Shown here piece by piece: positions 4,829-58,460 of a stretch of 64,000 nucleotides of DNA. Numbering within the stretch: position 1 is the first letter of the stretch; each line of letters starts with the position of its first letter. Under the pieces are notes generated by a model. That model saw only the letters and a list, made by a program, of their open reading frames with translations, made no database searches and was not told the origin of the DNA. The position numbers and the translations under genes were made by a program. Origin of the DNA: Deltaproteobacteria bacterium (GTDB lineage: Bacteria > Desulfobacterota > Binatia > UBA9968 > JAJDTQ01); contig JAPOPM010000077.1 in NCBI GenBank assembly GCA_026712905.1, forward strand, positions 1,413 through 65,412, given 5' to 3'.

Positions 4829-4873
4829 GTCCTCGAAGCGGCGGCCGGGACACCCGGTGCCCTGGGCCGCGCT

Positions 4874-5036
4874 AGTGTCGTGTCCCGTAAATTCCTGGCA
4901 TAATTTGCTGGTCTTTTTCGCCGTCGGCTGCGTTGCTCTTCCTCGCGTGGTGCCCGCCACTGCTCGTCATCGCGCCTTGCCGACGACGAAATATCCTGCG
5001 CAACTTATGCCAGGAATTTACGGGACACGACACTAG
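4874..5036. repeat. MITE-like element: 32-bp perfect terminal inverted repeats (CTAGTGTCGTGTCCCGTAAATTCCTGGCATAA) flanking a 99-bp AT-richer core
   Basis: Left arm 4874-4905 is the exact reverse complement of right arm 5005-5036. The proC stop TAG lies inside the right-arm CTAG. Confidence 0.7.
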
Positions 5037-19184: not shown

Positions 19185-19832
19185 CTACGACTTGGGCCAG
19201 GACGTGATCCGCGACTCCGGGCGCAGCTTGTCCCGGTCGTAGGTTTCCCAGTGGACGAAGTCGTCTACCTTGCGGCGCGGCTTGGGTTTGGGCCAGGCGC
19301 GCGGGAGCCCCACGGGCATCACCCATAGCAGGCGCAGCGGGCGCGGCACCTCGAACAGCGCGCGCAGCTCCGGCTCCACCTCCTTGCGCACCGAGACCCA
19401 CACCGTGCCGAAGCCCATGCTCGCCGCCGCCAGCATCATGTGCTCCACCGCGTTGGCCACGTTGGCCTGGAAGAGCTTCTCACGGTCCGAGGGCTGACGC
19501 GTGGTGAGGTAGACCCGGCGGGTGCGGGCGTCGCCGCACACCAGGACCAGGGCGCTCACGTCGCCCACGTAGTCCTTCTTGAGCCCCTTGTAGTTCACCG
19601 GATCCTCGAGCTTGCGCTGGTTCCACTCGGCGGAATAGATCGCCCGGACCTTGCGCATCTTCGCCCGGTCCCGGGTCACGATGAACTCCCACGGTTGGCT
19701 GTTGGCTCCGGACGGTGCGAGCCGGGCCGCCTCGAACATGAGCCGTAGCTGCTCGTCCGTCACCCGCCCGCTCTTGTAAACGCGCACGCTGCGGCGCGCC
19801 GCCATCACATCCAGCAGTCCATGTGTGTCCAT
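19185..19832 (-). CDS. nitroreductase-family protein
   Basis: Start MDTHGLLDVMAARRSVR (GGAGG SD). Typical nitroreductase N-terminus (RRS.R.Y) and FMN-binding fold. Confidence 0.75.
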   Translation of the reverse strand: MDTHGLLDVMAARRSVRVYKSGRVTDEQLRLMFEAARLAPSGANSQPWEFIVTRDRAKMRKVRAIYSAEWNQRKLEDPVNYKGLKKDYVGDVSALVLVCGDARTRRVYLTTRQPSDREKLFQANVANAVEHMMLAAASMGFGTVWVSVRKEVEPELRALFEVPRPLRLLWVMPVGLPRAWPKPKPRRKVDDFVHWETYDRDKLRPESRITSWPKS

Positions 19833-19939
19833 CGTTGCCTCCCTTCTCTCCGCGCCTGTCGACACGACTGCCTGCCGACACCACTTCCAAACACAAGATG
19901 GCATCCTTGACTACCCTGTGGTACTTCTGCCGCAGGACC

Positions 19940-46597: not shown

Positions 46598-46846
46598 CTC
46601 CGGTACCGTCCTTCCCATTAGACTAGGGCCGGTTCCCTTTTCTTTTTCCTACTATTTGTTCTCAGTTAAAGGGTAAAGCGCCACCCTTCCCAAGTCAAGA
46701 AATTCTCTCCATATTTTCGCCTCGAACCATGCACTTTTTCGTGGACTGTACATTGCGCGGCGGCCCGCTTGCGTGAGCGGTACGCCGGACGAGCACGGGT
46801 AGGCCGTTTGCCATATCCCCGGCGCACCAGTAAAGGGGAACTATCC
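46598..46846. promoter_or_regulatory. AT-richer divergent promoter region between the putative regulator and the 4-gene MFS array
   Basis: Locally low GC (tttctttttcctactatttgttctcagttaaagggtaaag...). No coding potential. Confidence 0.4.
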
Positions 46847-48172
46847 GTTTCAAAGGCTTCCGAAGAACTCCTCCATATCGTGACGCGCAAGATCTTCTAC
46901 GGCTGGTACATCGTCGGCGTCGGCTTCATTTGCTACCTTGGCTCTTCCTTTGCCCTTTCCAGCACCCTCAGCGTCTTTCTCAAGCCCCTGACCACGGAGT
47001 TCGGGATCTCCCGGGGCATGTTCTCGTTCATCCGCAGCGGCGAGGTCATGCTGTCCTCGGTGGTGGCCGCCCTGGTCGGACCCCTCATCGACCGTTACGG
47101 GGCACGCTGGCTCATCATCACGGGCGCGCTGGTGGGAGGGGCGGGCTTCGTCCTGCTGAGCCAGGTGCAACAGTTCTGGCAGTTCATGGTCATACGCTGG
47201 CTACCGGTCACCATGGGCGACACCCTCATCAGCTACATGGTGGTCAACGTGATGATCTCGCGCTGGTTCGTGCGCAGGCGCGGCCGCGCCATCTCCATCG
47301 CCAACACCGGCAACGGCATCGCCAAGTCGACCATGCCGCTCCTCGCCGTGTGGCTCTTCGCGCTGGTGGGGTGGCGCCACACCTGGCTCGTTTTCGGTCT
47401 CCTCACCTGGGCGATGGTCGTGCTGCCCGCGTTCCTGATGGTCCGGCGCAGTCCCGAGGACATGGGGCTTCTGCCGGACGGCGCCTTCGCCCCTTACGAG
47501 CCTTCCCGCGGGCGGACACCGGAACGGCAGAGCCCGCCGGCGCCGTCCGTGGACATCCCGTGGACGCGCAAGGAAGCCGTCCACACCAGCACCTTCTGGC
47601 TGCTGGTCCTCTCCTTCGGCATCGTCAGCGTCGGCATCATCGGGTTGAACCTCCACGTCTATCCCTACATCACGGACATCGGCTACTCGCCCGAGGTGGC
47701 CGCGACGGTCATGGGCATGATGGCCTTGACGCAGATGGGAGCGACGCTGTTCTGGGGCCTCACCGCGGACCGCATCGACGTGCGCAAGGCAGCCTTCGCC
47801 CAATTCGTGGTGCAGGCGTGCGGACTGGGCCTGGCAATGTCCGCCGGGGGCATCACCGCGGTGTACCTGGGGTTCCTCCTGTACGGGTTCGGCCTCGGGG
47901 GAAGCTTGGTGATCCGCGAGCTCCTGTGGGCCAGCTACTTCGGCCGCATCTCGCTAGGGCGGGTGCGCGGACTGGGCTTCCTGATCACGCGCGTGTTCAC
48001 CACCGCCGGCCCCCCCTTCTTCGGCTTTTTCTACGACTACACGGGCAGCTACTTCCTGTCCTTCAGCTCCTTCATCGCCGGCCTGCTGGTCTCGGCGTTC
48101 CTGGTCCTGCTGCTGCGCCCTCCGCGGAAACCCGGATCGGCGCCGGACGCCCCGGACGCGGCAGCACCGTGA
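46847..48172 (+). CDS. MFS transporter (paralog 1 of a tandem array)
   Basis: FYGWYIVG...SSTLSVFLKP...MRRSPEDMGLLPDG family blocks shared with paralogs 3 and 4. Start codon uncertain (GTG 46881 or the upstream TTG). Confidence 0.7.
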   Translation, partial: VSKASEELLHIVTRKIFYGWYIVGVGFICYLGSSFALSSTLSVFLKPLTTEFGISRGMFSFIRSGEVMLSSVVAALVGPLIDRYGARWLIITGALVGGAGFVLLSQVQQFWQFMVIRWLPVTMGDTLISYMVVNVMISRWFVRRRGRAISIANTGNGIAKSTMPLLAVWLFALVGWRHTWLVFGLLTWAMVVLPAFLMVRRSPEDMGLLPDGAFAPYEPSRGRTPERQSPPAPSVDIPWTRKEAVHTSTFWLLVLSFGIVSVGIIGLNLHVYPYITDIGYSPEVAATVMGMMALTQMGATLFWGLTADRIDVRKAAFAQFVVQACGLGLAMSAGGITAVYLGFLLYGFGLGGSLVIRELLWASYFGRISLGRVRGLGFLITRVFTTAGPPFFGFFYDYTGSYFLSFSSFIAGLLVSAFLVLLLRPPRKPGSAPDAPDAAAP

Positions 48173-48180
48173 GAGCCTTC

Positions 48181-49431
48181 ATGCTGCGGAAACCCGACCC
48201 ATCCTGGATCGTCGCAGGCGCCGCCTCATTGACCTTCGGCTTCGTCCGCGGCCTGCACACGTCCTTCGCCGTCTTTTTCGTGGCGCTCCTCGATACGTTC
48301 CAGTGGAGCCGCGGGGTGACCGCCGGGCTTCAGTCCGCGAGCCTGATCATGGATGCCCTGGTGTCGCCCTTCATCGGACGGCTCACCGACCGCCTGGGGC
48401 CGCGGCGGGTCGTGGCCGCGGGCGGCGTCCTCCTGGCTGTGGGCCTGGTCCTCTGCAGCCAGGTGAGCACCCCCTGGGAGCTCTATCTCTACTTCGGGGT
48501 GGTGATGTCGCTGGGGTTCGCGGCCAGCGGCGTGGTGCCCCACGTGCTGGTGGTGGCGGACTGGTTTCCCACGCGCCGGGGACTGGTGCTGGGCATCGTC
48601 TACGGAGCCGTGGGAGTGGGAACCCTCATCCTTTCGCCCCTGAGCCAGTGGCTGATCTCCCTGTGGGGCTGGCCGCGGGTGTTCCAGGCGCTGGCGGCGG
48701 CCATCCTCATCGCCGTGGTGCCGCTGGTGTGGAGCACCTACCGCCCCAGCCCCCACGACGCGCATACGCCGGCGGGAAGCGGCGGCGGCACCCCGGCCGG
48801 CCAGTGGTCGGTGCGCCTGGCGTTGAGGAGCATCCAGTTCTGGAGCCTGTTCATCTCGCGGCTGTTGGGTTCCGTCGGCACGGTGCTGGTCATTACCCAT
48901 CAGGTCGCCCACGTGGTGGACATCGGGTATGGCCACATCTGGGCCGCCGGCGTCTTCGGCGTGATGGCGTTCGTCAGCGCCGCCGGCCGGGTGACCTTCG
49001 GCTACATCGCCGACGCCTTCACCAAGCGGGCGGCCTACACCCTCAACATCGTGTGCGCGGCGGTCGGCGTCACGGCCCTCACCCTGGCCACGGACACGGC
49101 GCAACCTTGGCTGCTTTACGTTTACGTCGGCGGCTTCGGCATCGCCTTCGGCTCCCGCGCCGTGATCCTCTCGGCGATCACCGCCGACATCTTCGCCGGC
49201 CGGGGCTTCGGCACCATCTTCGGCCTCTCGGTGGCGAGCGTGGGATTCGGCGGCGCCACCGGCGCGTGGCTGGGCGGTGCGCTGCACGATCTCACGGGCG
49301 ACTACGCCGCCTCGTTCAACGTCGCCAACGGGCTCCTGATCTCCTCGGTGGTGGCGGTCTGGATCACCGGCCTCGACTGGATGCGCCGTTTCGACCAGCG
49401 ACTGTGGGCGGACAGCCCCCCGGGCACCTGA
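48181..49431 (+). CDS. MFS transporter (paralog 2, distinct subfamily)
   Basis: ATG at 48181, 9 nt after the paralog-1 stop. About 12 TM helices. Confidence 0.75.
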   Translation: MLRKPDPSWIVAGAASLTFGFVRGLHTSFAVFFVALLDTFQWSRGVTAGLQSASLIMDALVSPFIGRLTDRLGPRRVVAAGGVLLAVGLVLCSQVSTPWELYLYFGVVMSLGFAASGVVPHVLVVADWFPTRRGLVLGIVYGAVGVGTLILSPLSQWLISLWGWPRVFQALAAAILIAVVPLVWSTYRPSPHDAHTPAGSGGGTPAGQWSVRLALRSIQFWSLFISRLLGSVGTVLVITHQVAHVVDIGYGHIWAAGVFGVMAFVSAAGRVTFGYIADAFTKRAAYTLNIVCAAVGVTALTLATDTAQPWLLYVYVGGFGIAFGSRAVILSAITADIFAGRGFGTIFGLSVASVGFGGATGAWLGGALHDLTGDYAASFNVANGLLISSVVAVWITGLDWMRRFDQRLWADSPPGT

Positions 49432-49578
49432 AGCGGTGATTGACTCCGGGGAGGCGATTGCCTAGTAAACTCCCTTGAGCCACCCGCGCCCGCGCCGGCC
49501 AATGCCGCATTGGCCACTGCCGCACCGGCCGCTGTCGCACCGGCCATTTCACGCACGCCGAGGAAAGATGCATGCACC

Positions 49579-50892
49579 GTGACCGCTGATTCCACGCATC
49601 CCGCCACGAAACCACGCCTCTTCTATGGCTGGTACATCGTCGGCGCCGGCTTCCTGGCCAACATCTCCTGTGCCTTCTTCCTCTCCAGCACCCTCAGCGT
49701 CTTCCTGAAGCCGATCACCACCGACCTCGGTGTCTCCCGGGGCATTTTCTCCCTCCTGCGTTCGGGCGAACACCTGCTGTACGCCGGCATGGCGCCGTGG
49801 ATCGGGGCCAAGCTCGACCAATACGGACCGCGGCGCATGATGGTCGCCGGCGCGATCCTCTCGGCCATCGGGTTTCTGCTGCTGGGGCAGGTGGGTTCCT
49901 TCTTTCAGTTCGCGTCGGTGCGCCTGACCCTGATGGCCGTGGGCCATGCGCTGGTGTGCTACTTCGTGGTGAACGTCACCGTGGCCCGGTGGTTCGTGCG
50001 CATGCGCGGACGAGCCCTGGCCATCTCCCACCTGGGGCACGGCATCGCCAAGATAGTCATCTCGGCGGTGGTGGGCTGGCTGCTGACGTTCATCGCGTGG
50101 CGCCAGGTATGGACCCTGTTCGGCGCGCTCGTGGTGGTGCTCGCGGTCATCCCGGTGGCGATCCTCATGCGCCGGAGCCCGGAGGACATGGGGCTTCATC
50201 CGGACGGCGCTCCCCCCCGGAAGGCCCCGGGGGCGGCGGGTCGTGTGCAGGAGCGGGCGGCCGGCACCGAGGACGGGCCGGAACCCGAAGTTCGCTGGAC
50301 GCGACGCGAGGTGCGGCGCACGTCCACCTTCTGGTTGATCATCCTGGCATTCGGCATGGTGGACATCGGCATCACCGGTCTCAACCTCCACGTCGTCTCC
50401 TACGTCTCGGACCTGGGATTCGGCGGCGTCCCGGCCGCCCTGACCATGACCGTAATCGCCGGGACGCAAGCGTCCTCCGGACTGCTGTGGGGCTTCGTCG
50501 GCGAGCGCGTCACCGTCCGCAAGGTCGTCTCGTTCCTGTTCCTGGTGGAGGCCGCCGGTCTGTACGTGGCGGCGAACGCGCAGGACCTCTCGACGATCTA
50601 CCTCGGGTTCTTCTTCTACGGATTGGGCCTCGGCGGCGCCCAGGTGCTGGAGGAGGTCATGTGGGCCAACTACTTCGGCCGGGTCTCGCTGGGCACGGTC
50701 CGCGGCGCCGCCCTGCAGATCATCCTGCTGTGCGGCGTCTGCGGCCCGCCGTTCTTCGGTTTCGTGAATGACTACACCGGCTCCTACACGATCTCGTTCT
50801 ACATGTTCATCGGCATGCTGCTGGTCTCGTCGGTGCTCACGCTGACGATACGGAGCCCGCGGCCGCCGGCTGGAGTCGAAGCGGCGGCGTGA
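49579..50892 (+). CDS. MFS transporter (paralog 3)
   Basis: GTG start 11 nt after a GAGGAAAG SD (ATG 49510 is the alternative). Same subfamily as paralogs 1 and 4. Confidence 0.7.
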   Translation: MTADSTHPATKPRLFYGWYIVGAGFLANISCAFFLSSTLSVFLKPITTDLGVSRGIFSLLRSGEHLLYAGMAPWIGAKLDQYGPRRMMVAGAILSAIGFLLLGQVGSFFQFASVRLTLMAVGHALVCYFVVNVTVARWFVRMRGRALAISHLGHGIAKIVISAVVGWLLTFIAWRQVWTLFGALVVVLAVIPVAILMRRSPEDMGLHPDGAPPRKAPGAAGRVQERAAGTEDGPEPEVRWTRREVRRTSTFWLIILAFGMVDIGITGLNLHVVSYVSDLGFGGVPAALTMTVIAGTQASSGLLWGFVGERVTVRKVVSFLFLVEAAGLYVAANAQDLSTIYLGFFFYGLGLGGAQVLEEVMWANYFGRVSLGTVRGAALQIILLCGVCGPPFFGFVNDYTGSYTISFYMFIGMLLVSSVLTLTIRSPRPPAGVEAAA

Positions 50893-52178
50893 GCATGCAG
50901 ACATCGGCCAGACCCAGGGTTTTCTACGGCTGGTACATCGTCGCCACCGGCTTTCTCGTGCAGGTGGCGTGCGCCTTCTACCTCTCCAGCACCCTGGGCG
51001 TCATGCTCAAGGCCATCACCGCCGAGATGCGGGTCTCCCGGGGCACGTTCTCGCTGATGCGCTCCGTCGAGCTGGTGGCCTACGCCGCGGTGACGCCGTG
51101 GATCGGCTCGTTGCTGGACCGCCACGGCGCGCGCCGTCTCATGGTCATCGGCTCGATCATCTCGGTGGCCGGCTTCGTGCTGCTGGGCTACGCCCGGAAC
51201 TTCTGGGAGTTCGCGGCCGTGCGCGTCGCCCTGGTGTCCATCGGTCACGCCTTCGTCTGCTATTTCGTGGTCAACGTCGCCATCTCCCGCTGGTTCATAC
51301 GCCGGCGCGGCCGGGCCCTGGCCATCGCCCACGTCGGCCAGGGCGTTTCCAAGACCACCATCGCCCTCGCCGTCGCCTACCTCATGACGGTCATCGGCTG
51401 GCGTTCGGTGTGGGTGCTTTTCGGCGGGCTCGTGGTGGTCCTCGCGCTGATCCCGGCGGCGCTGTGGATGCGCCGGAGCCCCGAGGACATGGGGCTGCGT
51501 CCCGACGGCGACCCCGACTATGCCGCGGCGCCGGACCGGGGCGCCTCACGGCCCCCTGGCCCGGCCCCCGAGGACGTCACCTGGACCCGCCGGGAAGCCC
51601 TGCACACGCCGACGTTCTGGCTCATCACCTTCATCTTCAGCACCGTCGACATCGGCATCGCCGGCTTCAACCTGCACGTGCTCGCCTACATCTCGGACCT
51701 GGGCCACTCCATGGTGGCGGCGGCATCGGTGGCCACGGTCATGGCCGCCACCCAACTTGGCTCCGGCCTCCTGTGGGGCTTCATCAGCGAGCGGGTCAGC
51801 GTGCGCCGGGCCACGGCGCTCATGTTCGTGGTCCAGGCCGTGGGCCTGGTGGTGGCCATGAACACCGGCGGCCTCATGTGGCTGTACGTCGCCTTCTTCC
51901 TCTACGGCTCCGGCCTCGGCGGCGCCCACGTGCTCCAGGAAGTCATGTGGGCCAACTACTTCGGACGCATCTCCCTCGGCACCGTCCGCGGCCTCAGCCT
52001 CCCCATCCTCCTCCTCTGCGCCGCCATCGGCGCCCCGTTCTTCGGCTACCTCTACGACTACACCGGCAACTACGACCTGTCGCTGGTCCTCTTCATCGCC
52101 GTGCAGGTCATCTGCGCCGGGGTGACGCTGCTGGTGCGAAGGCCGGTGAAGCCGGACTGGGCTCCGGCTGTTTCGTGA
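50889..52178 (+). CDS. MFS transporter (paralog 4)
   Basis: GTGA overlap with paralog 3. MSMQTSARPRVFYGWYIV... Confidence 0.75.
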   Translation: MSMQTSARPRVFYGWYIVATGFLVQVACAFYLSSTLGVMLKAITAEMRVSRGTFSLMRSVELVAYAAVTPWIGSLLDRHGARRLMVIGSIISVAGFVLLGYARNFWEFAAVRVALVSIGHAFVCYFVVNVAISRWFIRRRGRALAIAHVGQGVSKTTIALAVAYLMTVIGWRSVWVLFGGLVVVLALIPAALWMRRSPEDMGLRPDGDPDYAAAPDRGASRPPGPAPEDVTWTRREALHTPTFWLITFIFSTVDIGIAGFNLHVLAYISDLGHSMVAAASVATVMAATQLGSGLLWGFISERVSVRRATALMFVVQAVGLVVAMNTGGLMWLYVAFFLYGSGLGGAHVLQEVMWANYFGRISLGTVRGLSLPILLLCAAIGAPFFGYLYDYTGNYDLSLVLFIAVQVICAGVTLLVRRPVKPDWAPAVS

Positions 52179-52300
52179 ACCACGGTCCATCCATCTTCAG
52201 AAAAAACGCGATCTCTTCCTAAAGTCCGGTTTCCGCCCGGCGATTAAAACTGTGAGGGCGGAAACACCCGCTTTCAAAATTCCAGAAGGAGGAGTACAGA

Positions 52301-52786
52301 ATGGAAATGTTAGCCTATTCCGAAGAGAAACGGTCCGTCGTGATCCCATGGATCCTGGATCCCGAACACGACGGCCTCGACCTGGAGGTCGATGGGTGTG
52401 GGTGCGGCTGCGGCGACGGTGGATGTGGTTCGTGCGGGTGCTCGTGCACGTGTTCGTGCAGTTGTTCGTGTTCATGCGACAGCACCGGCGCCAATAGCGA
52501 TGATACCGGCGACCACGGGTCAGGGGACCACGACGATTCAGGGGCAGGGGATGACGACACGCCCGGCATAGGAAGCACCATAGCTGAGGTGGCCCTTCAA
52601 GGTGCATGCCTCGCGGCAGGTGGCGCCGCCACCGCCGTACTGGCCACGAGCACCGCCACCGTCACCACGGTTGCAACTGCCAATCCGCTTCTCGGGGCTG
52701 CTGCCGGAGGTGGTGTTGCGCTCACTGCAGGTACGGCGGTCGTCTCAACCTGTACGTCCATCGACCTCGACGGTGACGGAAAGTAA
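52301..52786 (+). CDS. Cys-rich protein or peptide precursor (CxC-repeat core: CGCGCGDGGCGSCGCSCTCSCSCSCSC); candidate RiPP (azole-type) precursor or metallothionein-like metal binder
   Basis: AAGGAGGAG SD 8 nt upstream of the ATG. 161 aa: leader-like N-terminus, a core of about 12 Cys in 28 aa, an Asp/His/Gly acidic stretch, and an Ala/Thr/Gly tail. The antisense frame is His-rich. Confidence 0.45.
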   Translation: MEMLAYSEEKRSVVIPWILDPEHDGLDLEVDGCGCGCGDGGCGSCGCSCTCSCSCSCSCDSTGANSDDTGDHGSGDHDDSGAGDDDTPGIGSTIAEVALQGACLAAGGAATAVLATSTATVTTVATANPLLGAAAGGGVALTAGTAVVSTCTSIDLDGDGK

Positions 52787-52890
52787 CCGTCCCTCTGCCA
52801 GATCAGTCATGATGGCTCGCCGTCAGTGGGCGCATGACTGATCTGGCCCTTCCAACCCATCAACACGGCCACTATGAAACAGAGGCATTC

Positions 52891-53265
52891 ATGACGATTC
52901 AACCGCTTGTGTTCACGGCTTGTTACCTGCTGGGCGCGCTGATCCTCGCCGCTCTCTTCCTGTTGGACGAGCTTTACCTCGATTCCTTTTTCTCGACTTG
53001 GCATGTTGAATTTGGTCTTGTTCCTATTCTTTGGTTTGCGTACGGCACAAAACTCAATTTCCCGGAGTCCATCTTCGGGTTACTCACGGCTCTTCTGATC
53101 TTCTTCCTGTCGGTTTATGTTTCTCTTCCCCTAGTCCTTCCTGATTTTGGGGATGATTCATGGCCAGAAACCACGCTTCATTCGATGATTCTCCTAACCG
53201 GTATGGCGATGACTCTTTTGCTATGTCGTCGCTTCAAATCGCGAGCAAAGGCGAAGTCGTCATGA
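52891..53265 (+). CDS. small polytopic membrane protein (3-4 TM), function unknown
   Basis: Start MTIQPLVF after GAGG. Strongly hydrophobic. Same strand as, and between, the Cys-rich ORF and the S9 peptidase. Confidence 0.4.
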   Translation: MTIQPLVFTACYLLGALILAALFLLDELYLDSFFSTWHVEFGLVPILWFAYGTKLNFPESIFGLLTALLIFFLSVYVSLPLVLPDFGDDSWPETTLHSMILLTGMAMTLLLCRRFKSRAKAKSS

Positions 53266-53318
53266 CCGAGCCGTCGTTCACTGGCTTCGACAGATCCCAT
53301 CGTAATTACATGGAGGGT

Positions 53319-55289
53319 ATGAAGATGGCGTCGGTATTCACGAAACACCTCCAACGTCTTTTCTATGTGATTTTTCCGCTTCTCGCGCTTTGCGGAAACG
53401 CCGACACGGCTGCCGATACGTCAACCCATTCATCCCCCCGCGCCACCCAACCTCCAATGCTTCTTGCCGCCGAAGAGTTCTACACTTACCGACCCCAACG
53501 CTGGGGACACCAATTGTCTCCCGACGGAGAACGACTGGCGTGGTTTGAACGAATCAACGGCGAACCCAAGCTACACATTCGCGTACTTGGCACCGGCCAC
53601 ACCTACTTCATGCGCCTGCTCAAACACGTTCCAGGGTTTCAGTGGGCTCTCGACAACAGACACGTGACTTTTCGCCGTGCCGTAGACAAACACTTTAACG
53701 TGCATCTTTTTGCGGCTGATACCGACTCGCCGCAAAGCGATGCTCGCGACATCACGCCGTTCGAGGGCGTCAATGTCGACTGGCATCTCGCCTTGCTGGA
53801 GACACCCGGGTCCGTATTGGTGCGGATGAACCGCCGACAACACGACATGTACGACCTCTACGAGATCAATATCGAAACCGGCCACTACGACCTGCGGGCC
53901 ACGAATCTCGGGGAGACGGCGTACTGGCTGATCAGTCGGACCGGCTCGGTGGTGGGGCGAGTGCAGTCAGTCGCAGACGGCGCTTGGAAGCTCCAGGCAA
54001 GCCCTGGAGACACCGGCTGGACGACCCTGCTGACCGGCACGTTCAGGGATACGATCATTCCCGTCCACAACCTGCCGGAAGACGGCGCTAGGGTACACAT
54101 GCTGACCAACGCCAACAGAGACAAACTTGCGGTCATCGAACTCAACCTGAACACTGGGGAACAGAAGGTAATATTCGAGGCGCCGGACGTGGACACGACG
54201 AAATTTTGGGCGGACGTCCGTCGCTACGAGGTGTCAAGTGTCCTGTACTTCGATCCCCTTCCGTCTTATTTTTTCTTCGACCGGGAGTTGCAAGAGGATT
54301 TCAGGCGGCTCTTGGGGACAGCCCCCGTTTTGCATAATTTCTCCAGTGGCAGTCTCGACCATACCCGGCTCATAGTCCATGCTGAATCCGACCGCCAGGG
54401 AACCGCCACCTACTTTGTAGATCGGTCAACGGGAGCTAAGGAGATCCTGGCCGAACACCCGCTACGCAAACACGCAGATATCCTCTCCGAAACACAACCC
54501 GTGCGTTTCCAGGCACGCGACGGACTCCCGATCACCGGCTACCTGACCCTCCCGAACGGCACCGACGGCAAGGGCCTGCCCATGGTCCTGAAGGTTCACG
54601 GCGGTCCCTGGCTGTCGGACTCCTGGGGGTTCGACCCCGAGACCCAGTTTCTCGCTAATCGCGGCTACGCTGTGCTGGAAGTGAACTTCAGAGGCTCAAC
54701 GGGTTTCGGCAAGAGTTTCCTGGAACGGGGACGCCGGCAATTCGGTAGGAAGATGCAGGAGGACCTGATCGATGCGGTGGACTGGGCCATCGCCAAGGGC
54801 CATGCCGATCCGGAACGGATCGCCATTTTCGGCCACAGCTATGGCGGCTACGCCACGCTGATGGCCATGGCGCAGACCCCCTACAAGTTTGCCGCGGGCA
54901 TCAGCGCCATGGCGCCCACGGACCTTACACTTCTGGTGGACAGCTCTCGCCGGAACCCTCGTCTCTCGGCTTGGTGGCTCCATTTCGCTGGCGACACGCA
55001 CAATGAGGCCGATTATCAAGAGCTCAAGCAGTACTCACCGGTCACCCACGCCCGGCGAATTCAACGTCCCCTGTTGCTGTTCCACGGCGCCAAGGACATG
55101 AGAATCCCGAAGGAACACTTCGACCGGCTCCTCGTGGAACTTCGGAAGGGAAGCGCGCCCCTCGATTACCTCGTTCTTCAAGACGAGCGGCACCACATAA
55201 GGAAGACGGCCAACAAGCTCAAGTACGCTCGGCGAGTCGAGCGGTTCCTCGCCCAACATCTGGGCGGTCGGGCGGCGCCCCTGGACTGA
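53319..55289 (+). CDS. secreted S9-family serine peptidase (prolyl oligopeptidase / dipeptidyl-aminopeptidase / acylaminoacyl-peptidase type)
   Basis: Signal peptide MKMASVFTKHLQRLFYVIFPLLALCGNA. Beta-propeller N-domain, catalytic GHSYGG nucleophile elbow and a C-terminal Asp/His. Confidence 0.85.
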   Translation: MKMASVFTKHLQRLFYVIFPLLALCGNADTAADTSTHSSPRATQPPMLLAAEEFYTYRPQRWGHQLSPDGERLAWFERINGEPKLHIRVLGTGHTYFMRLLKHVPGFQWALDNRHVTFRRAVDKHFNVHLFAADTDSPQSDARDITPFEGVNVDWHLALLETPGSVLVRMNRRQHDMYDLYEINIETGHYDLRATNLGETAYWLISRTGSVVGRVQSVADGAWKLQASPGDTGWTTLLTGTFRDTIIPVHNLPEDGARVHMLTNANRDKLAVIELNLNTGEQKVIFEAPDVDTTKFWADVRRYEVSSVLYFDPLPSYFFFDRELQEDFRRLLGTAPVLHNFSSGSLDHTRLIVHAESDRQGTATYFVDRSTGAKEILAEHPLRKHADILSETQPVRFQARDGLPITGYLTLPNGTDGKGLPMVLKVHGGPWLSDSWGFDPETQFLANRGYAVLEVNFRGSTGFGKSFLERGRRQFGRKMQEDLIDAVDWAIAKGHADPERIAIFGHSYGGYATLMAMAQTPYKFAAGISAMAPTDLTLLVDSSRRNPRLSAWWLHFAGDTHNEADYQELKQYSPVTHARRIQRPLLLFHGAKDMRIPKEHFDRLLVELRKGSAPLDYLVLQDERHHIRKTANKLKYARRVERFLAQHLGGRAAPLD

Positions 55290-55381
55290 TGGGCGAACGG
55301 GCCGAAACCGGCGACTGAATGACCCCGCTTGGCTCAAAGGAACGTCCGCAACACTCGCCGCCACAGAGGATCACAAACGCT

Positions 55382-55812
55382 CTACGGCCAGTAGGTCTTC
55401 CCCTTGCGGTCGGTGACGAACAGCTCGGAAGGAAGTTCGACGCCGATTCCCTGCCTGCGGGCGGCTTCGTAGAGGATGCGGGCGGTGGCGGCGAACTGGA
55501 TGCCCATGCCGGTGTTGTTCTTGAAGACGATGATCTCGTCGTCGTTCTCGCGGCCGCGGCACTGGCCGGTCAGCAGCTCGCCGGGTTCGTGCAGGTCCTC
55601 TTCCTTGATGAGGTCGCGCTCGATGCGGGGGAACAGCGCGGCCTGCTTGTCGAGGAAGACCTGCCTGCGGAAGCCCACCACGATGAGATCGGCGCGCTCG
55701 ATCACGGCGTCGTCCAACTCGTGGCGGGCGAGGTAGCTGTCGCCGCCCACGATGCTGTTGACGAAGGCGCCCTTGTCCAGCCACTCGCCGTTGATGACCG
55801 GGTCCACGGTGT
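55382..55812 (-). pseudogene. 3'-terminal fragment (about 143 codons) of an ornithine cyclodeaminase / mu-crystallin gene, duplicated from 57110-57541
   Basis: About 95% nucleotide identity to the 3' end of the intact gene, including the stop codon. Homology ends abruptly at 55812; the upstream in-frame extension runs antisense into the Sel1 gene. Confidence 0.6.
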
Positions 55813-55950
55813 TGTTCGTGCGGTTGTTCGTCGCTGACGCATTGGACACGGCTGCCGATACCGCAAGGGGAGTCGGTCGACAGTTTGCATCCCTCCCGCA
55901 GGAGGGATGCAAACACAATAGGCATTCACCGAATGTTCGGAAAACCGAGG

Positions 55951-57033
55951 ATGAGAAACGCCATGACCAAACACTTTCGCGTGAAGCATTCATCATCTGT
56001 GACTCTGGGGCTGGGGCTGCTCTGGATCGTCTTGGCCTCCAACTCCGCCGCCGGTCAAACAAGGACCCTACCCCAAGAGACACCGCTCAACGTATGTCTG
56101 GACAACAACAGCGACTGGAGCGCACGGGTAGACGCATGCCGCACAACCGCCGAACAGGGTTTGTCGGAAGCCCAGTACCGCCTCGGCGCCATGTACTTCA
56201 AGGGACGCGGCGTACGGCAGGATGCTGACCAAGCGAGACGTTGGTACCGACTTGCTGCGGAGCAAGGCCACCCGAAAGCACAGTACAATCTCGCGACCAT
56301 GCACGCGTTGGGCCAAGGCATTCCCAAGGACCTTGACACGGCGTTGCGCTGGTACCGATCCGCCGCCGAACAAGGGAATCCGGCCGCGCAGTACAACCTC
56401 GCGACCATGTACGATCGAGGACATGGACCGCAAAAGGATCATGCCGAAGCGCTGCGCTGGTACCACTCGGCAGCCGAACAAGGGTTTCCCTTGGCGCAGA
56501 CCCAACTCGGAACCATGTACCATGCGGGGCGCGGAGTGCCCCAGGACTACGCCGCGGCGCTACGCTGGTACCGCTCGGCAGCCGAACAAGGAGACGCGCG
56601 CGCGCAATACAACCTTGGAACGATGTATGATAAGGCGCACGGCGTGGCCCGAGACTACACCAAGGCCGTTCACTGGTTCCGCATAGCTGCGGAGCAACGA
56701 CACGTCGGCGCGCTATACAACCTCGGTTTGATGCATTCGAAGGGTCACGGGTTACCCGTGGACTATGTCAAGGCCGCCCAATGGTACCGTAAGGCCGCTG
56801 AAGAGGGATTCGCGCTAGCGCAGTTTCAACTTAGTCTTATGTACATTCAAGGACTCGGGGTTGGCCGAGATCTGGCGCTCGCGTACATGTGGCTCGACCT
56901 AGCGGCCGCCGGTGACACGCAGCCCTGGATGGCCGCGCGTGACAAATTAGTGAAGGAAATGGCACCTGAGCAGGTAGCAGAAGCGCGGCGAATGGCACGC
57001 GTATGGTTGACAAGGCGCCAGGGGAACGAATAA
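55951..57033 (+). CDS. Sel1-like repeat (SLR/TPR-family) protein, secreted
   Basis: Signal peptide, then about 9 tandem Sel1 repeats (AQYNLATMY..G.GV..D...A..WYR.AAEQG). Lower GC than flanks. Confidence 0.8.
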   Translation: MRNAMTKHFRVKHSSSVTLGLGLLWIVLASNSAAGQTRTLPQETPLNVCLDNNSDWSARVDACRTTAEQGLSEAQYRLGAMYFKGRGVRQDADQARRWYRLAAEQGHPKAQYNLATMHALGQGIPKDLDTALRWYRSAAEQGNPAAQYNLATMYDRGHGPQKDHAEALRWYHSAAEQGFPLAQTQLGTMYHAGRGVPQDYAAALRWYRSAAEQGDARAQYNLGTMYDKAHGVARDYTKAVHWFRIAAEQRHVGALYNLGLMHSKGHGLPVDYVKAAQWYRKAAEEGFALAQFQLSLMYIQGLGVGRDLALAYMWLDLAAAGDTQPWMAARDKLVKEMAPEQVAEARRMARVWLTRRQGNE

Positions 57034-57109
57034 TCGGTTCCAAGACGCGGCCAAGTACCGCTTCGGCCCTCGATGTTCGGCGTCCGAGCGACGGTTGGAA
57101 TTCCCCTGC

Positions 57110-58183
57110 CTACGGCGAGTAGGTCTTCCCCTTGCGATCCGTGACGAACAGCTCGGAAGGAAGTTCGACGCCGATGCCCTGCTTGCGGGCGGCTTCGTAG
57201 AGGATGCGGGCGGTGGCGGCGAACTGGATGCCCATGCCGGTGTTGTTCTTGAAGACGATGATCTCGTCGTCGTTCTCGCGGCCGCGGCACTGGCCGGTCA
57301 GCAGCTCGCCGAGTTCGTGAAGGTCCTCTTCCTTGATGAGGCCACGCTCGATGCGGGGGAACAACTCGGCCTGCTTGTCGAGGAAGACCTGCCTGCGAAA
57401 GCCCACGACGATGAGATCGGCGCGCTCGATCACGGCGTCGTCCAACTCGTGGCGGGCGAGGTAGCTGTCGCCGCCCACGATGCTGTTGACGAAGGCGCCC
57501 TTGTCCAGCCACTCGCCGTTGATGACCGGGTCCACGGTGTTGGTGGCGGCGGTGACGATGTCGCTGCCGCGCACCGCTTCTTCGGCCGAGTGCACCGGCA
57601 CGATCTCGACCCCCGCCTTCTCCGTCATCTCCTCGGCAAACCGTTCCCGGTTGGCCCGGGTGGGGCTGAACACCTTGACCTTGTCGAGCTGGCGCACGGC
57701 GCACGTGGCTAGGAGCTGGGTCTTGGCCTGTTCGCCCGAGCCCACGAGACCCATGACCCGGGCGTCCTTGCGCGCCAGGTGTTTGGCCGCCACGCCGCTG
57801 GTGGCGCCCACGCGGAAGATGGAGATGTAGTGGTCGTCCATGATGGACAACAGCGAGCAGTCTTCCATGTCGAACAGGAAGACGAGGCCCACGTAGTCCC
57901 CGGGGTAGATCCGCCGCTTGGTGCCGGCCACCTCCTCCTCGTCGGAGAAGGTCGAATCGATGCGGAGCCCCATGGACTTCATTCCCGGCACGAGCCCCAT
58001 GATGTTGTTGAAGTAGTACTGGAAGCCGGGCTTCTTACCGGGAGCCTGGACCCGAATCCGCGCGCGGGGTGAGTTGACCGCGGCGCCCTCGCCCATCTCC
58101 CGATATGCCTGCTCGATGGCGTCGATCTCGTCCGCCATCGGCACCAAGTCTTCGAGTTGTTCATTTTTGAGGACTAGAACCAT
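57110..58183 (-). CDS. ornithine cyclodeaminase / mu-crystallin family protein
   Basis: Start MVLVLKNEQ with a GGAGGA SD. Rossmann GLVGSG block and OCD family C-terminus. Confidence 0.8.
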   Translation of the reverse strand: MVLVLKNEQLEDLVPMADEIDAIEQAYREMGEGAAVNSPRARIRVQAPGKKPGFQYYFNNIMGLVPGMKSMGLRIDSTFSDEEEVAGTKRRIYPGDYVGLVFLFDMEDCSLLSIMDDHYISIFRVGATSGVAAKHLARKDARVMGLVGSGEQAKTQLLATCAVRQLDKVKVFSPTRANRERFAEEMTEKAGVEIVPVHSAEEAVRGSDIVTAATNTVDPVINGEWLDKGAFVNSIVGGDSYLARHELDDAVIERADLIVVGFRRQVFLDKQAELFPRIERGLIKEEDLHELGELLTGQCRGRENDDEIIVFKNNTGMGIQFAATARILYEAARKQGIGVELPSELFVTDRKGKTYSP

Positions 58184-58224
58184 TCTTCTCCTCCGGAAGT
58201 CTCGGCTGAACCGTTTCTGTCTCC

Positions 58225-58460
58225 ACCCCTCCTGGATTCCCGCTTCCCAGGCTGTGTCAAGACTGATGAGGCAGAGCCCCATCGAGTCGTCATTCCCGCG
58301 GAAGCGGGAATCCAGGGGCGGTGGTGGGGCATTACAGGGGCGTTCCTCCGTCTCGCCACCCCTGGATTCCCGCTTCCGCGGGAATGACGACTCGGGGGTT
58401 GGTGCCCATTCTTGTCCGGGCGACGTTTTGCCACGGCCGCTTCCGCGGGAATGACGTTTT
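58225..58460. repeat. cluster of 4 REP-like elements (GTCATTCCCGCGGAAGCGGGAATCCAGG family) in alternating orientation
   Basis: Copies near 58231, 58289, 58361 and 58431. Each contains the hairpin ATTCCCGC-GGAA-GCGGGAAT. Read as protein they give SFPRKRESRGG / LDSRFRGNDD, which explains the spurious small ORFs. Confidence 0.8.

What the first reader, a model, noticed from the sequence alone, without database searches (positions are those of the whole stretch)
52284..52786. Strongly SD-driven ORF with a CxC-repeat cysteine core (candidate azole-type RiPP precursor or novel metallothionein-like protein); antisense frame encodes a His-rich peptide
What the sequence shows: a near-ideal AAGGAGGAG sits 8 nt before ATG 52301. 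The ORF has a 33-aa leader-like segment (MEMLAYSEEKRSVVIPWILDPEHDGLDLEVDG) and then CGCGCGDGGCGSCGCSCTCSCSCSCSC, about 12 Cys in 28 residues, every Cys flanked by Gly/Ser/Thr. That is followed by an Asp/His/Gly-rich acidic stretch and an Ala/Thr/Gly tail. Established knowledge: Cys alternating with Ser/Thr/Gly is the hallmark of thiazole/oxazole-modified (TOMM/LAP) precursors such as microcin B17 and heterocycloanthracin, and CxC repeats also define metallothioneins. The reverse strand of the same DNA reads HEHEQLHEHVHEHPHEPHP, which is His-rich and also metal-binding-like, so either strand would give a metal- or heterocycle-prone product. Inference: a small membrane protein and a secreted S9 peptidase follow on the same strand, and four MFS exporters precede it. 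No YcaO, dehydrogenase or radical-SAM gene is visible in these 64 kb. The local GC is visibly lower than the rest of the window.
Basis: partly seen in the sequence, partly recalled or inferred. Interest (0 to 1): 0.8.

Follow-up and report, generated by a model that had tools for sequence, protein, structure and literature searches.

The report
Cysteine-repeat precursor of an iron-enzyme system
This is a real, conserved gene for an unannotated Cys-repeat protein of Candidatus Binatia bacteria that elsewhere sits beside a cysteine-modifying iron enzyme (MNIO), a type I exporter and an S9 peptidase. Its swappable tail and matching downstream gene look like a toxin-immunity pair.

Summary
ORF 52301-52786 (161 aa), its strong Shine-Dalgarno site, 12 Cys in 27 residues, the antisense His-rich frame and the local GC dip are all present.

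The forward frame is the gene. Homologues keep every Cys through TGT/TGC and TCN/AGY switches, and leader pN is well below pS. The antisense His-rich frame is a by-product.

No Pfam or NCBIfam family matches. A profile search of 1.84 billion proteins finds only 28 relatives, mostly in Candidatus Binatia MAGs.

They share an N-terminal module: a leader (PWxLD..DLDLEIHG), a (Cys-Gly/Ser)n core and an acidic linker. Different C-terminal domains are fused to it.

In three complete clusters (L023, L032, L033) and one contig-truncated locus (L013), a member lies beside an MNIO enzyme (PF05114, BufB/HvfB-like) and its partner. The complete clusters add a HlyB-type ABC exporter, HlyD and a TauD-family enzyme; S9 peptidase (all three) and SDR (L023, L033) also recur.

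The window has only the precursor, a small membrane protein and the S9 peptidase. Related genomes carry the MNIO operon 200-330 kb away with no precursor beside it.

The C-terminal type co-varies with the next gene, and homology to close relatives breaks at codon 68.

Best reading: an MNIO-modified, exported, bacteriocin-like polymorphic protein. It is not a YcaO/TOMM peptide.

The parts
52286..52294 (+). Shine-Dalgarno AAGGAGGAG
   Evidence: Read directly. The same AAGGAGGAG/AAGGAGGA motif sits before the start codon of homologues in L001, L005, L008, L009 and others.
52301..52786 (+). Precursor gene, 161 aa, including the stop codon. It belongs to an unannotated Cys-repeat family of Candidatus Binatia.
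   Evidence: ORF listing. Homologues. No Pfam or NCBIfam hit. AlphaFold2 pLDDT 45, predicted disordered.
52301..52396 (+). Leader-like segment, aa 1-32 (MEMLAYSEEKRSVVIPWILDPEHDGLDLEVDG). It is the inferred recognition sequence for the MNIO partner protein.
   Evidence: W17 and G32 are invariant; L19, L26, L28, E29 and H31 are nearly invariant across 21 diverse members. Purifying selection: pN 0.05 against pS 0.56 versus L001. The recognition role is inference.
52397..52477 (+). Cys-repeat core, aa 33-59, with 12 Cys each preceded by Gly, Ser or Thr. These are the inferred MNIO modification sites.
   Evidence: The Cys are invariant. TGT/TGC and TCN/AGY codon switches occur between homologues. 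The modification itself is inferred from MNIO adjacency in L013, L023, L032 and L033.
52478..52558 (+). Acidic Asp/Gly/His/Ser linker, aa 60-86, beginning with the conserved DxTGAN motif. The recombination breakpoint lies inside it.
   Evidence: Alignment A1 shows T62, G63 and A64 invariant. blastn homology to L001 (93%) ends at 52503, and to L005 at 52558.
52559..52783 (+). Variable C-terminal domain, here called type G. It has two Cys flanking about 45 Ala/Gly/Thr/Val-rich residues and ends IDLDGDGK. It is the inferred membrane-active effector.
   Evidence: The same type is found in L014, L019 and L025. Its hydropathy is moderate, KD 1.0-1.65. Other members carry unrelated C-termini, including a Hedgehog-N/LAS-like Zn hydrolase. 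The function is inferred.
52797..52847 (+). Strong stem-loop just after the stop codon.
   Evidence: dG -35.6 kcal/mol, z = -5.7 against shuffles. There is no U tract. Comparable hairpins follow the stop codon at most Binatia loci, with different sequences.
52891..53265 (+). Small multi-pass membrane protein, 124 aa from the likely start. The ORF is open from 52834. It is an immunity-like partner of the type G tail.
   Evidence: Hydrophobic segments. Homologous proteins follow all four type G members (W, L014, L019, L025). Other C-terminal types are followed by different proteins.
53310..55289 (+). Secreted S9 (prolyl-oligopeptidase family) peptidase. The ORF is open from 53160 and a signal-peptide-like N-terminus starts near 53310.
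   Evidence: PF00326, E = 2.6e-49. It is 49% identical to the S9 peptidase of cluster L023. An S9 gene also lies next to precursors or MNIO genes in L032, L033, L005, L007, L008, L014, L021 and L024.
55382..55814 (-). Duplicated 3' fragment of the ornithine-cyclodeaminase gene, a scar of cassette insertion.
   Evidence: blastn gives 95% identity to L001 11274-11706, the same stretch that W 57110+ also matches.
55963..57033 (+). Sel1-repeat protein with a signal-peptide-like start. It is an orphan copy of the gene that follows type B family members.
   Evidence: Sel1 repeats, E = 1.9e-76. It is 68% and 80% identical to the proteins directly downstream of the type B members in L009 and L016.
52504..57109 (.). 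Variable, lower-GC cassette region between the conserved N-terminal module and the conserved OCD gene.
   Evidence: Homology to L001, L015 and L005 stops at 52503-52558 and resumes at the OCD gene. GC is 0.50-0.64.

Best explanation
The ORF encodes the precursor of a post-translationally modified, exported protein. The explanation has two layers with different confidence.

Layer 1, about 0.75. The protein belongs to a Binatia-centred family that serves as substrate for a BufB/HvfB-related MNIO (multinuclear non-haem iron oxidative, DUF692) enzyme and its DUF2063-like partner.
- The 32-aa leader (PWxLD..DLDLEV/IxG) is what the partner binds.
- The 12 X-Cys units of the core are oxidised to thiooxazole-type or oxazolone/thioamide-type heterocycles, giving a multi-site metal-binding (probably copper) segment.
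- The product leaves the cell through the HlyB-type ABC / HlyD type I exporter encoded in the same operons.
- The secreted S9 peptidase is the best candidate for trimming it.
- In this genome the precursor, the small membrane protein and the S9 peptidase sit apart from the enzyme operon, which acts in trans.

Layer 2, about 0.45. The family is built like a polymorphic bacteriocin. It has a constant N-terminal module and an exchangeable C-terminal effector. In the window the effector is an Ala/Gly-rich, microcin-like membrane-active tail; in other members it is a Hedgehog-N/LAS-like zinc hydrolase. A cognate gene follows immediately, here the small membrane protein, and would act as immunity.

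Shown: family membership, module architecture, gene neighbourhoods, same-chromosome co-occurrence, the recombination breakpoint and the co-variation. Inferred: the chemistry, the export, the cleavage, and toxicity and immunity.
For: The gene is real:
- Invariant Cys with synonymous and Ser-codon switches.
- Conserved SD.
- Leader pN below pS.

Module plus variable tails:
- Alignments A1 and A3.
- Sequences of the distant members.
- C-terminal type C matches Sonic hedgehog N-domain structures at E = 1.2e-5, with the H..D and HxH zinc motif invariant.

MNIO link:
- L013: MNIO (PF05114, E = 7.5e-71), then partner, then family member.
- L023: member, MNIO, partner, ABC, HlyD, TauD, SDR, S9.
- L032: two MNIO sets. 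One set follows a C-terminal fragment carrying the type C (LAS-like) domain, whose N-terminus lies beyond the locus edge, so its family membership is inferred. The other set is preceded by a 270-aa family member plus S9.
- L033: member, S9, MNIO, partner, ABC, HlyD, TauD, SDR.
- L031: the small membrane protein type directly upstream of the MNIO.
- L025, syntenic with the window: a 25-aa MNIO N-terminal remnant right after the precursor.

Trans arrangement:
- MNIO orthologues (76-88% identical) lie on the same chromosomes as members L007, L014, L018, L020/L025 and L021.
- In the L014 and L007 genomes the MNIO-partner-ABC-SDR operon has no adjacent precursor. It lies about 0.2-0.33 Mb from the family member.

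Enzyme class:
- The best NCBIfam hits are BufB (195 bits) and HvfB (176 bits), both Cys-modifying MNIOs.
- HlyD scores above the TIGR01843 cutoff, and the ABC is HlyB-like.

Polymorphism:
- 93% nucleotide identity to L001 stops at codon 68.
- C-terminal type and next gene co-vary: 4/4 for type G, 11/11 for the SE[AS]C-type tails, 2/2 for type B, 2/2 for type C.
- An orphan type B partner gene and a duplicated OCD fragment lie in the window.

Literature: MNIOs modify Cys in peptides and in proteins, and precursors without signal peptides go with non-Pfam 'PME-type 2' partners (PMC12452194).
Against: - No MNIO, partner, ABC, HlyD or TauD gene lies in the 64 kb window. For this genome the link rests on relatives.
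- Adjacency was seen in only four or five loci, whose MNIOs belong to one clade.
- No chemistry was tested.
- The MNIO scores below the BufB and HvfB equivalog cutoffs, so the reaction could differ.
- The partner gives no PDB or solid Pfam hit. DUF2063 scores only E = 3e-4 in one copy.
- The ABC N-terminal domain appears to lack the C39 catalytic Cys (my reading), so leader cleavage is unassigned.
- The tail is only moderately hydrophobic and matches no known toxin family.
- L033 and the 270-aa member in L032 have no immunity-like gene between precursor and S9.
- Co-variation could partly reflect shared descent within one phylum.
Confidence: 0.6

Rival explanations
1. It is an MNIO-modified secreted or cell-associated metal buffer, bufferin-like, with no antagonistic role. 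The variable C-terminus would be an anchor or scaffold, and the downstream membrane protein a docking or uptake partner rather than immunity.
For: - The MNIO is closest to BufB and HvfB, whose products bind copper (PMC12452194, PMC11626156 abstracts).
- The Ala/Gly-rich tails between two Cys are present in several types.
- No tail of the window's type matches a known toxin.
Against: - Some members carry an enzyme tail, a LAS/Hedgehog-N-like Zn hydrolase, each followed by its own signal-peptide protein.
- The breakpoint lies exactly after the constant module.
- An orphan partner gene is retained.
- One cluster sits on a mobile element.
- These are hallmarks of toxin-immunity cassettes and are not expected for a housekeeping metal buffer.
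Confidence: 0.25
2. It is an unmodified metallothionein-like cytoplasmic protein that binds Zn, Cu or Cd through its CxC repeats.
For: - CxC repeats and an acidic/His stretch.
- No modifying enzyme in the window.
- A stand-alone 72-77 aa member (P0040, L011/L027) has no MNIO within 10 kb.
Against: - No metallothionein family hit.
- It does not explain the invariant 32-aa leader, the fusion to unrelated C-terminal domains, or the repeated adjacency to MNIO, partner and a type I exporter.
- Every genome checked that has a member also has the MNIO orthologue.
Confidence: 0.1
3. It is a YcaO-dependent thiazole/oxazole (TOMM/LAP) precursor.
For: - The core composition resembles LAP precursors. One example is the Brevibacillus laterosporus peptides with CSCSCSC runs that BAGEL3 calls LAPs (PMC6510442).
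- The acidic leader is reminiscent of thiopeptide leaders (my recollection).
Against: - No YcaO, E1-like or McbC-type dehydrogenase lies next to any member in about 25 loci with precomputed or computed Pfam.
- None was found among 37 ORFs spanning the window. The only nitroreductase-fold gene is 33 kb away among housekeeping genes.
- No TOMM, NHLP or Nif11 NCBIfam hit.
- A different Cys-modifying enzyme is the recurrent neighbour.
Confidence: 0.03
4. The antisense strand is the coding strand, giving a His-rich peptide, or the ORF is a non-coding low-complexity repeat.
For: An 88-aa antisense ORF is open at 52315-52581.
Against: - The antisense frame changes from HEHE to QLQL or HPHP among homologues and is interrupted by a stop in frame 0.
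- The forward frame keeps every Cys, has a conserved SD and start, and shows pN below pS.
Confidence: 0.02

Closest known systems
Bufferins (BufA precursors with the BufB MNIO and BufC DUF2063 partner)
   Same: - A Cys-containing ribosomal precursor is modified by an MNIO plus partner.
- The MNIO here scores best against the BufB model.
- The expected product is a metal-binding heterocycle.
   Different: - Bufferins carry Sec signal peptides and belong to DUF2282 or BUF_6/12Cys. This protein has no signal peptide and hits neither family.
- The MNIO is below the BufB cutoff (195 against 310 bits).
- Export here is by a type I system.
- There are many more, tandem, X-Cys sites.
- The C-terminal domains are variable.
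HvfA/oxazolins (EGKCG-repeat proteins with the HvfB MNIO)
   Same: An MNIO acts on a protein-sized substrate with a repeated Cys motif. HvfB is the second-best model for the enzyme (PMC11252979 listed).
   Different: The repeat is (G/S/A/T)-C, not EGKCG. There is no signal peptide. A leader is present. The gene set differs (T1SS, TauD, S9).
'Adjamnio-I' putative precursors (Antoine et al. 2025, PMC12452194)
   Same: They are described as lacking a signal peptide, 122-293 aa long, with 8-21 Cys and the gene order precursor - MNIO - PME-type 2 partner. That fits this family's size, Cys count and order in L023.
   Different: Identity could not be checked. Their alignment is held only as an image, and the two NCBI accessions of this family are not in the held supplements. 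The paper text does not mention 'HlyD' or 'type I secretion', and none of the sections I read describes variable tails or immunity-like genes.
Class II microcins (colicin V; siderophore-microcins H47/E492/M)
   Same: From my own knowledge: they are Gly/Ala-rich membrane-active peptides exported by an ABC/HlyD-family type I system, protected by small membrane immunity proteins. In class IIb they carry a post-translationally attached metallophore. The window's tail, small membrane protein and the family's exporter are analogous.
   Different: - No sequence similarity was detected.
- The leader is not a clear double-glycine type.
- The ABC N-terminal domain seems to lack the catalytic Cys.
- The metallophore part would be made in the peptide chain by an MNIO, at the N-terminal side.
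Polymorphic toxin systems (CDI CdiA-CT/CdiI, Rhs, and others)
   Same: - A constant N-terminal part.
- A sharp breakpoint.
- Exchangeable C-terminal domains, each followed by a cognate gene.
- Orphan partner genes.
- Lower-GC cassettes.
   Different: The proteins are very small (110-310 aa). None of the known trafficking domains is present. The constant part is a RiPP-like leader plus Cys core tied to an MNIO.
Linear azole-containing peptides / heterocycloanthracin-type TOMMs
   Same: Cys alternating with Gly, Ser or Thr behind a leader (for a LAP example).
   Different: There is no YcaO machinery in any locus. The protein is much longer, with a C-terminal domain. A different enzyme family is associated.

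Membership tests
MNIO-dependent RiPP/protein precursors (general) | The precursor gene is encoded next to an MNIO (PF05114) and a partner protein. | tested here: inconclusive
   Not met in the window: there is no MNIO in 64 kb. Met for family members in L013, L023, L032 and L033. An MNIO remnant follows the precursor in syntenic L025. MNIO orthologues lie on the same chromosome in five related genomes.
MNIO-dependent RiPP/protein precursors (general) | Conserved Cys-containing motif serving as the modification site. | tested here: met
   The HGCGCG start of the core and the later Cys are invariant or nearly invariant across 21 diverse members.
MNIO-dependent RiPP/protein precursors (general) | Cys actually converted (4-electron oxidation, heterocycle, metal binding). 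| not testable with these tools
   Needs mass spectrometry and UV-vis of co-expressed proteins.
Bufferins (Buf1 DUF2282 / Buf2 BUF_6/12Cys) | Sec signal peptide and a match to the DUF2282 or BUF_6/12Cys signature. | tested here: not met
   No Pfam or NCBIfam hit. The N-terminus is acidic, with no hydrophobic signal segment.
Bufferins (Buf1 DUF2282 / Buf2 BUF_6/12Cys) | The associated MNIO reaches the BufB equivalog score. | tested here: not met
   195 bits against a cutoff of 310. HvfB gives 176 against 360.
TOMM / LAP (YcaO-dependent azole peptides) | YcaO cyclodehydratase, with or without an E1-like partner and an FMN dehydrogenase, in the cluster. | tested here: not met
   None appears in the Pfam lists of the related loci or among 37 ORFs spanning the window.
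TOMM / LAP (YcaO-dependent azole peptides) | The precursor matches a TOMM, NHLP, Nif11 or heterocycloanthracin precursor model. | tested here: not met
   NCBIfam scan gave 0 families at E <= 0.1.
Metallothioneins | Match to a metallothionein family; a small stand-alone Cys-rich metal-binding protein. | tested here: not met
   No Pfam or NCBIfam hit. The Cys block is only 27 of 161 residues, embedded between a conserved leader and a variable domain.
Polymorphic toxin / bacteriocin-immunity systems | Constant N-terminal region, variable C-terminal domains, and a breakpoint between them. | tested here: met
   (homology to L001 ends at 52503, codon 68).
Polymorphic toxin / bacteriocin-immunity systems | Each C-terminal type is followed by its own cognate gene. 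| tested here: met
   4/4 type G, 11/11 for the SE[AS]C-type tails, 2/2 type B, 2/2 type C. An orphan type B partner lies in the window. Exceptions: L033 and the L032 270-aa member have none.
Polymorphic toxin / bacteriocin-immunity systems | The C-terminal domain is toxic and the partner neutralises it. | not testable with these tools
   Only one tail type has a recognisable enzymatic fold, LAS/Hedgehog-N-like.
Type I secretion substrates | Dedicated HlyB-type ABC and HlyD adaptor encoded with the substrate. | tested here: inconclusive
   Present in L023, L031, L032 and L033, and HlyD is present in L018, L022 and L026. Absent from the window. No secretion signal was defined.

The most novel reading that the evidence does not exclude
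The family is a new kind of weapon: a chimaera of a RiPP and a polymorphic toxin. An MNIO would build a chain of copper-binding heterocycles in the constant N-terminal module. That module would act as a built-in metallophore 'Trojan horse' or delivery handle, analogous to the siderophore on class IIb microcins. It would carry exchangeable toxin domains out through a type I exporter and into competitors, with the adjacent small gene as immunity.
Probability: 0.25. Interest if true: 0.85.

Novelty: new variant of a known kind. Interest (0 to 1): 0.66.

Why it matters
MNIO enzymes are a fast-growing class of peptide-modifying enzymes, and their known products are mostly small copper-binding peptides.

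This family has three unusual properties:
- Its substrate carries up to about 20 tandem X-Cys sites.
- It has a cytoplasmic leader instead of a signal peptide, and a dedicated type I exporter.
- It has exchangeable C-terminal domains with co-varying partner genes, which links RiPP chemistry to the logic of polymorphic toxins.

It also shows that precursors can sit hundreds of kilobases from their enzyme operon. Genome mining that looks only beside the enzyme would miss them.

The family comes from uncultured Candidatus Binatia, where almost nothing is known about secreted products.

If the reading is wrong, the result is still a well-defined, unannotated, lineage-restricted protein family with a testable partner set.

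Tried and rejected
- Pfam and NCBIfam scans of the ORF found nothing.
- AlphaFold2 with the 18-sequence alignment gave pLDDT 45, so no fold search was run.
- The word-indexed homology search with the N-terminal module alignment was swamped by low-complexity words and returned only 7 hits.
- The JGI metagenome scan gave a single locus.
- A literature search for the string CSCSCSC found only a LAP precursor from Brevibacillus, unrelated in leader and context.
- Searches combining MNIO with Binatia, or with immunity, type I secretion or polymorphic toxin, found no paper on such a system.
- I tried to decide whether this is the published 'adjamnio-I' group. The alignment is held only as an image, and the accessions are not in the held supplements.
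- The profile of the partner protein against PDB sequences gave no hit.
- The profile of the commonest C-terminal type against PDB and Pfam gave only compositional matches.
- I first thought the window's C-terminus might be a frameshifted or truncated copy. I rejected this because L014, L019 and L025 have the same tail type ending ID.DGDGK/E.
- I considered a double-glycine leader cleaved by a C39 ABC transporter. The hydrophobic spacing does not fit, and the ABC N-terminal domain appears to have Ser or Ala where the catalytic Cys would be (my reading).
- I considered the MFS genes as exporters of the product. I rejected this because they are absent from all complete clusters.
Full report
**1. 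The observation**

The sequence is as described.
- AAGGAGGAG lies at 52286-52294, just upstream of ATG 52301.
- The ORF runs to 52786 and encodes 161 aa.
- Its parts are a 32-aa acidic N-terminus; a core CGCGCGDGGCGSCGCSCTCSCSCSCSC with 12 Cys in 27 residues; an Asp/Gly/His-rich stretch; and an Ala/Thr/Gly-rich tail ending IDLDGDGK.
- The antisense ORF 52315-52581 reads HEHEQLHEHVHEHPHEPHP.
- GC drops to 0.50-0.62 from about 52 to 58 kb, against 0.66-0.71 around it.

**2. Which strand, and is it a gene?**

Homologues exist: 17 in the first search.

All Cys of the core are kept in them, while codons alternate between TGT and TGC. Ser codons switch between TCN and AGY, which needs two base changes. 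The antisense reading meanwhile drifts from HEHE to QLQL or HPHP, and one antisense frame acquires a stop.

The strong SD and the ATG are conserved.

Over the ungapped first 36 codons of 12 genes, the median pS is 0.69 and the median pN 0.27. For the window against its close relative L001 the values are 0.56 and 0.05.

The forward frame is therefore a protein under purifying selection. The antisense His-rich peptide is a by-product of TGY-TCG repeats.

**3. What family?**

Neither Pfam nor NCBIfam matches. AlphaFold2 predicts disorder, with pLDDT 45.

A profile search of 1.84 billion representative proteins finds only 28 relatives. The family is therefore rare and lineage-restricted.

GTDB representative genomes that encode it are almost all titled Candidatus Binatia, and several hold two copies.

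The sequences share an N-terminal module with three parts:
- a leader, xxIxxPWxLDxxxxDLDLE[IV]HG;
- a (Cys-Gly/Ser/Ala/Thr)n block of 20-40 residues;
- an acidic linker.

Unrelated C-terminal domains are fused to this module:
- Type A and related tails: a Cys, about 50 Ala/Gly-rich residues, then SE[AS]C, often ending NDESFxKAxETLLVVH.
- Type B: GMDPVA..TGEHYDP...
- Type C: matches Sonic hedgehog N-domain structures (the LAS zinc-hydrolase fold) at E = 1.2e-5, with the H..D and HxH ligands invariant.
- Type D: ends KKF.
- Type E: a helical acidic type.
- Type G, the window's own: shared with L014, L019 and L025.

The window's tail is therefore a genuine variant, not a frameshift.

**4. Neighbours**

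The window and 12 other loci share one synteny. The order is transketolase, ThyX, four MFS genes, the precursor, a variable stretch, ornithine cyclodeaminase and a molybdopterin oxidoreductase. That synteny says little about function.

The informative loci are elsewhere.

| Locus | Gene order |
|---|---|
| L013 | MNIO (PF05114, E = 7.5e-71), partner (weak DUF2063), type C family member, 161-aa signal-peptide protein |
| L023 | member, MNIO, partner, HlyB-type ABC, HlyD (TIGR01843 above cutoff), TauD-family dioxygenase, SDR, S9 peptidase |
| L032, set 1 | C-terminal fragment with a type C domain (its N-terminus lies off the locus edge), 167-aa homologue of the L013 downstream protein, MNIO, partner |
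| L032, set 2 | 270-aa type E member, S9 peptidase, MNIO, partner, ABC, HlyD, TauD |
| L033 | type D member, S9, MNIO, partner, ABC, HlyD, TauD, SDR; next to a TrwC relaxase and transposases |
| L031 | the common small membrane protein directly before MNIO, partner, ABC, HlyD, TauD, SDR |
| L018, L022, L026 | member, small membrane protein (absent in L022), HlyD, TauD |

The S9 peptidase of the window is 49% identical to that of L023. S9 genes recur beside members.

No YcaO, radical-SAM or lanthipeptide enzyme appears in any of these loci, nor among 37 ORFs spanning the window.

**5. The window lacks the enzyme, but relatives have it in trans**

An MNIO HMM on the six-frame translation finds nothing in the window. 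tblastn with the L023 proteins finds nothing except the S9 peptidase.

MNIO orthologues (76-88% identical to the L023 enzyme) lie on the same chromosome-sized contigs as members L007, L014, L018, L020/L025 and L021.

In the L014 genome, whose member has the window's tail type, and in the L007 genome, the operon MNIO-partner-ABC-SDR has no precursor beside it. It lies roughly 0.2-0.33 Mb from the family member.

L025, which is syntenic with the window, keeps a 25-residue remnant of the MNIO N-terminus immediately after its precursor.

The simplest reading is one enzyme and export operon serving precursors scattered in the genome through their shared leader.

**6. Enzyme class and likely chemistry**

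The MNIO scores best against BufB (195 bits) and HvfB (176 bits), both below the equivalog cutoffs. Both act on Cys to give copper-binding heterocycles (papers listed).

A published survey reports three relevant points (PMC12452194):
- MNIOs also modify protein-sized substrates.
- Precursors without signal peptides go with partners that lack the DUF2063 signature ('PME-type 2').
- One unnamed group, 'adjamnio-I', has 122-293 aa, 8-21 Cys and the order precursor-MNIO-PME type 2.

That group may be this family or a neighbour of it. I could not check.

The conversion of the 12 X-Cys units of the window protein is inference.

**7. Polymorphism**

Against L001 the window is 93% identical from the last MFS gene through codon 67 of the ORF. 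Similarity then stops at 52503 and resumes only at the cyclodeaminase gene. Against L014, similarity (69%) runs through the whole gene and the small membrane gene.

The gene that follows tracks the tail type:
- All four type G members are followed by homologous about 124-aa multi-pass membrane proteins (M..RP..F.A.YLLGALILA.FF.LDE..).
- Eleven members with SE[AS]C-type tails are followed by a different small membrane protein (F.FMGA.R.R.GD.D..).
- Both type B members are followed by a Sel1-repeat protein with a signal peptide.
- Both type C domains are followed by homologous about 165-aa signal-peptide proteins.

The window also keeps a Sel1 protein 68-80% identical to the type B partners, although its own tail is type G. 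A duplicated 3' fragment of the cyclodeaminase gene lies beside it. This is the picture of successive cassette replacement with an orphan partner left behind.

**8. Mechanism proposed**

Layer 1:
- The leader is bound by the partner.
- The MNIO oxidises the Cys core to a run of metal-binding heterocycles.
- The HlyB/HlyD system exports the product.
- The secreted S9 peptidase may trim it.
- TauD and SDR may add further changes.

Layer 2: the C-terminal domain is an effector. In the window it is an Ala/Gly-rich, moderately hydrophobic hairpin between two Cys, compositionally like class II microcins (my knowledge). The small membrane protein would be immunity.

The conserved strong SD fits a highly expressed precursor followed by less-expressed accessory genes. 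So does the very stable hairpin right after the stop codon (dG -35.6, z -5.7).

**9. Weak points**

- There is no enzyme in the window and no experimental chemistry.
- Adjacency rests on a handful of loci from one MNIO clade.
- The partner has no solid structural match.
- The ABC N-terminal domain seems non-catalytic, so leader removal is unassigned.
- The tail hits no toxin family.
- Two cluster-embedded members lack an immunity-like gene.
- All of this comes from one phylum, so co-variation is partly confounded with descent.

**10. Verdict**

The enzyme family is wrong (MNIO, not YcaO), the antisense idea is wrong, and the MFS link is unsupported.
- The finding is a new, unannotated variant within the MNIO world, with an unusual polymorphic-toxin-like organisation.
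- Interest is 0.66.

Noticed in passing
window 52797-52847: A near-perfect 15-bp inverted repeat (CCAGATCAGTCATGA...CATGACTGATCTGG) forms a -35.6 kcal/mol hairpin right after the stop codon, with no U tract. Most related loci have an equally strong hairpin of different sequence at the same place. L014 has almost the same sequence.
   Followed up: partly
window 55382-55814 (-) and 57110-58282 (-): The 3' part of the ornithine-cyclodeaminase gene is present twice. The extra fragment is 95% identical to L001's OCD. It looks like a scar of recombination that inserted the variable cassette.
   Followed up: partly
window 55963-57033 (+): A Sel1-repeat protein is 68-80% identical to the proteins that directly follow type B family members in L009 and L016. 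Here it is not next to a type B tail, so it may be an orphan immunity-like gene. It also scores 162 bits against the phenylmercury-resistance MerG model, below cutoff.
   Followed up: partly
window 46769-52178 (+): Four tandem paralogous MFS transporters (63-71% nucleotide identity to each other) are closest to lactate/oxalate-formate type models. They are conserved upstream of the precursor in one Binatia lineage but absent from the complete MNIO clusters.
   Followed up: partly
L023 9628-9930 and 9932-10010: There is a tandem repeat just upstream of, and running into, the start of the L023 precursor. It reads DALQR x4 in the protein, and GTRFLGTRFL on the opposite-strand ORF.
   Followed up: no
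L033 4158-9159 and 20059-20104; L032 5303-6457; L018 7951-9711: The complete clusters sit beside mobility genes: a TrwC relaxase, DUF772 and other transposases. This suggests that the whole system moves horizontally.
   Followed up: no
L011 10001-10234 and L027 9971-10189: These are stand-alone 72-77 aa members: leader, Cys core and a short tail (..GECTDDLS.QLGSG), with no C-terminal domain. They lie between a cupin/EutA-like pair and an alcohol dehydrogenase, with no MNIO within 10 kb.
   Followed up: no
L028 8533-9558 and L029 8739-9749: A DUF6282 gene directly precedes the precursor-less MNIO operon in two genomes, next to SoxYZ / flavocytochrome c sulfide dehydrogenase genes.
   Followed up: no
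window 3854-4960 (-) and 19185-19904 (-): A TonB-C-terminal-domain protein and a nitroreductase-family protein lie among housekeeping genes, far from the ORF. No link to the finding was seen.
   Followed up: no
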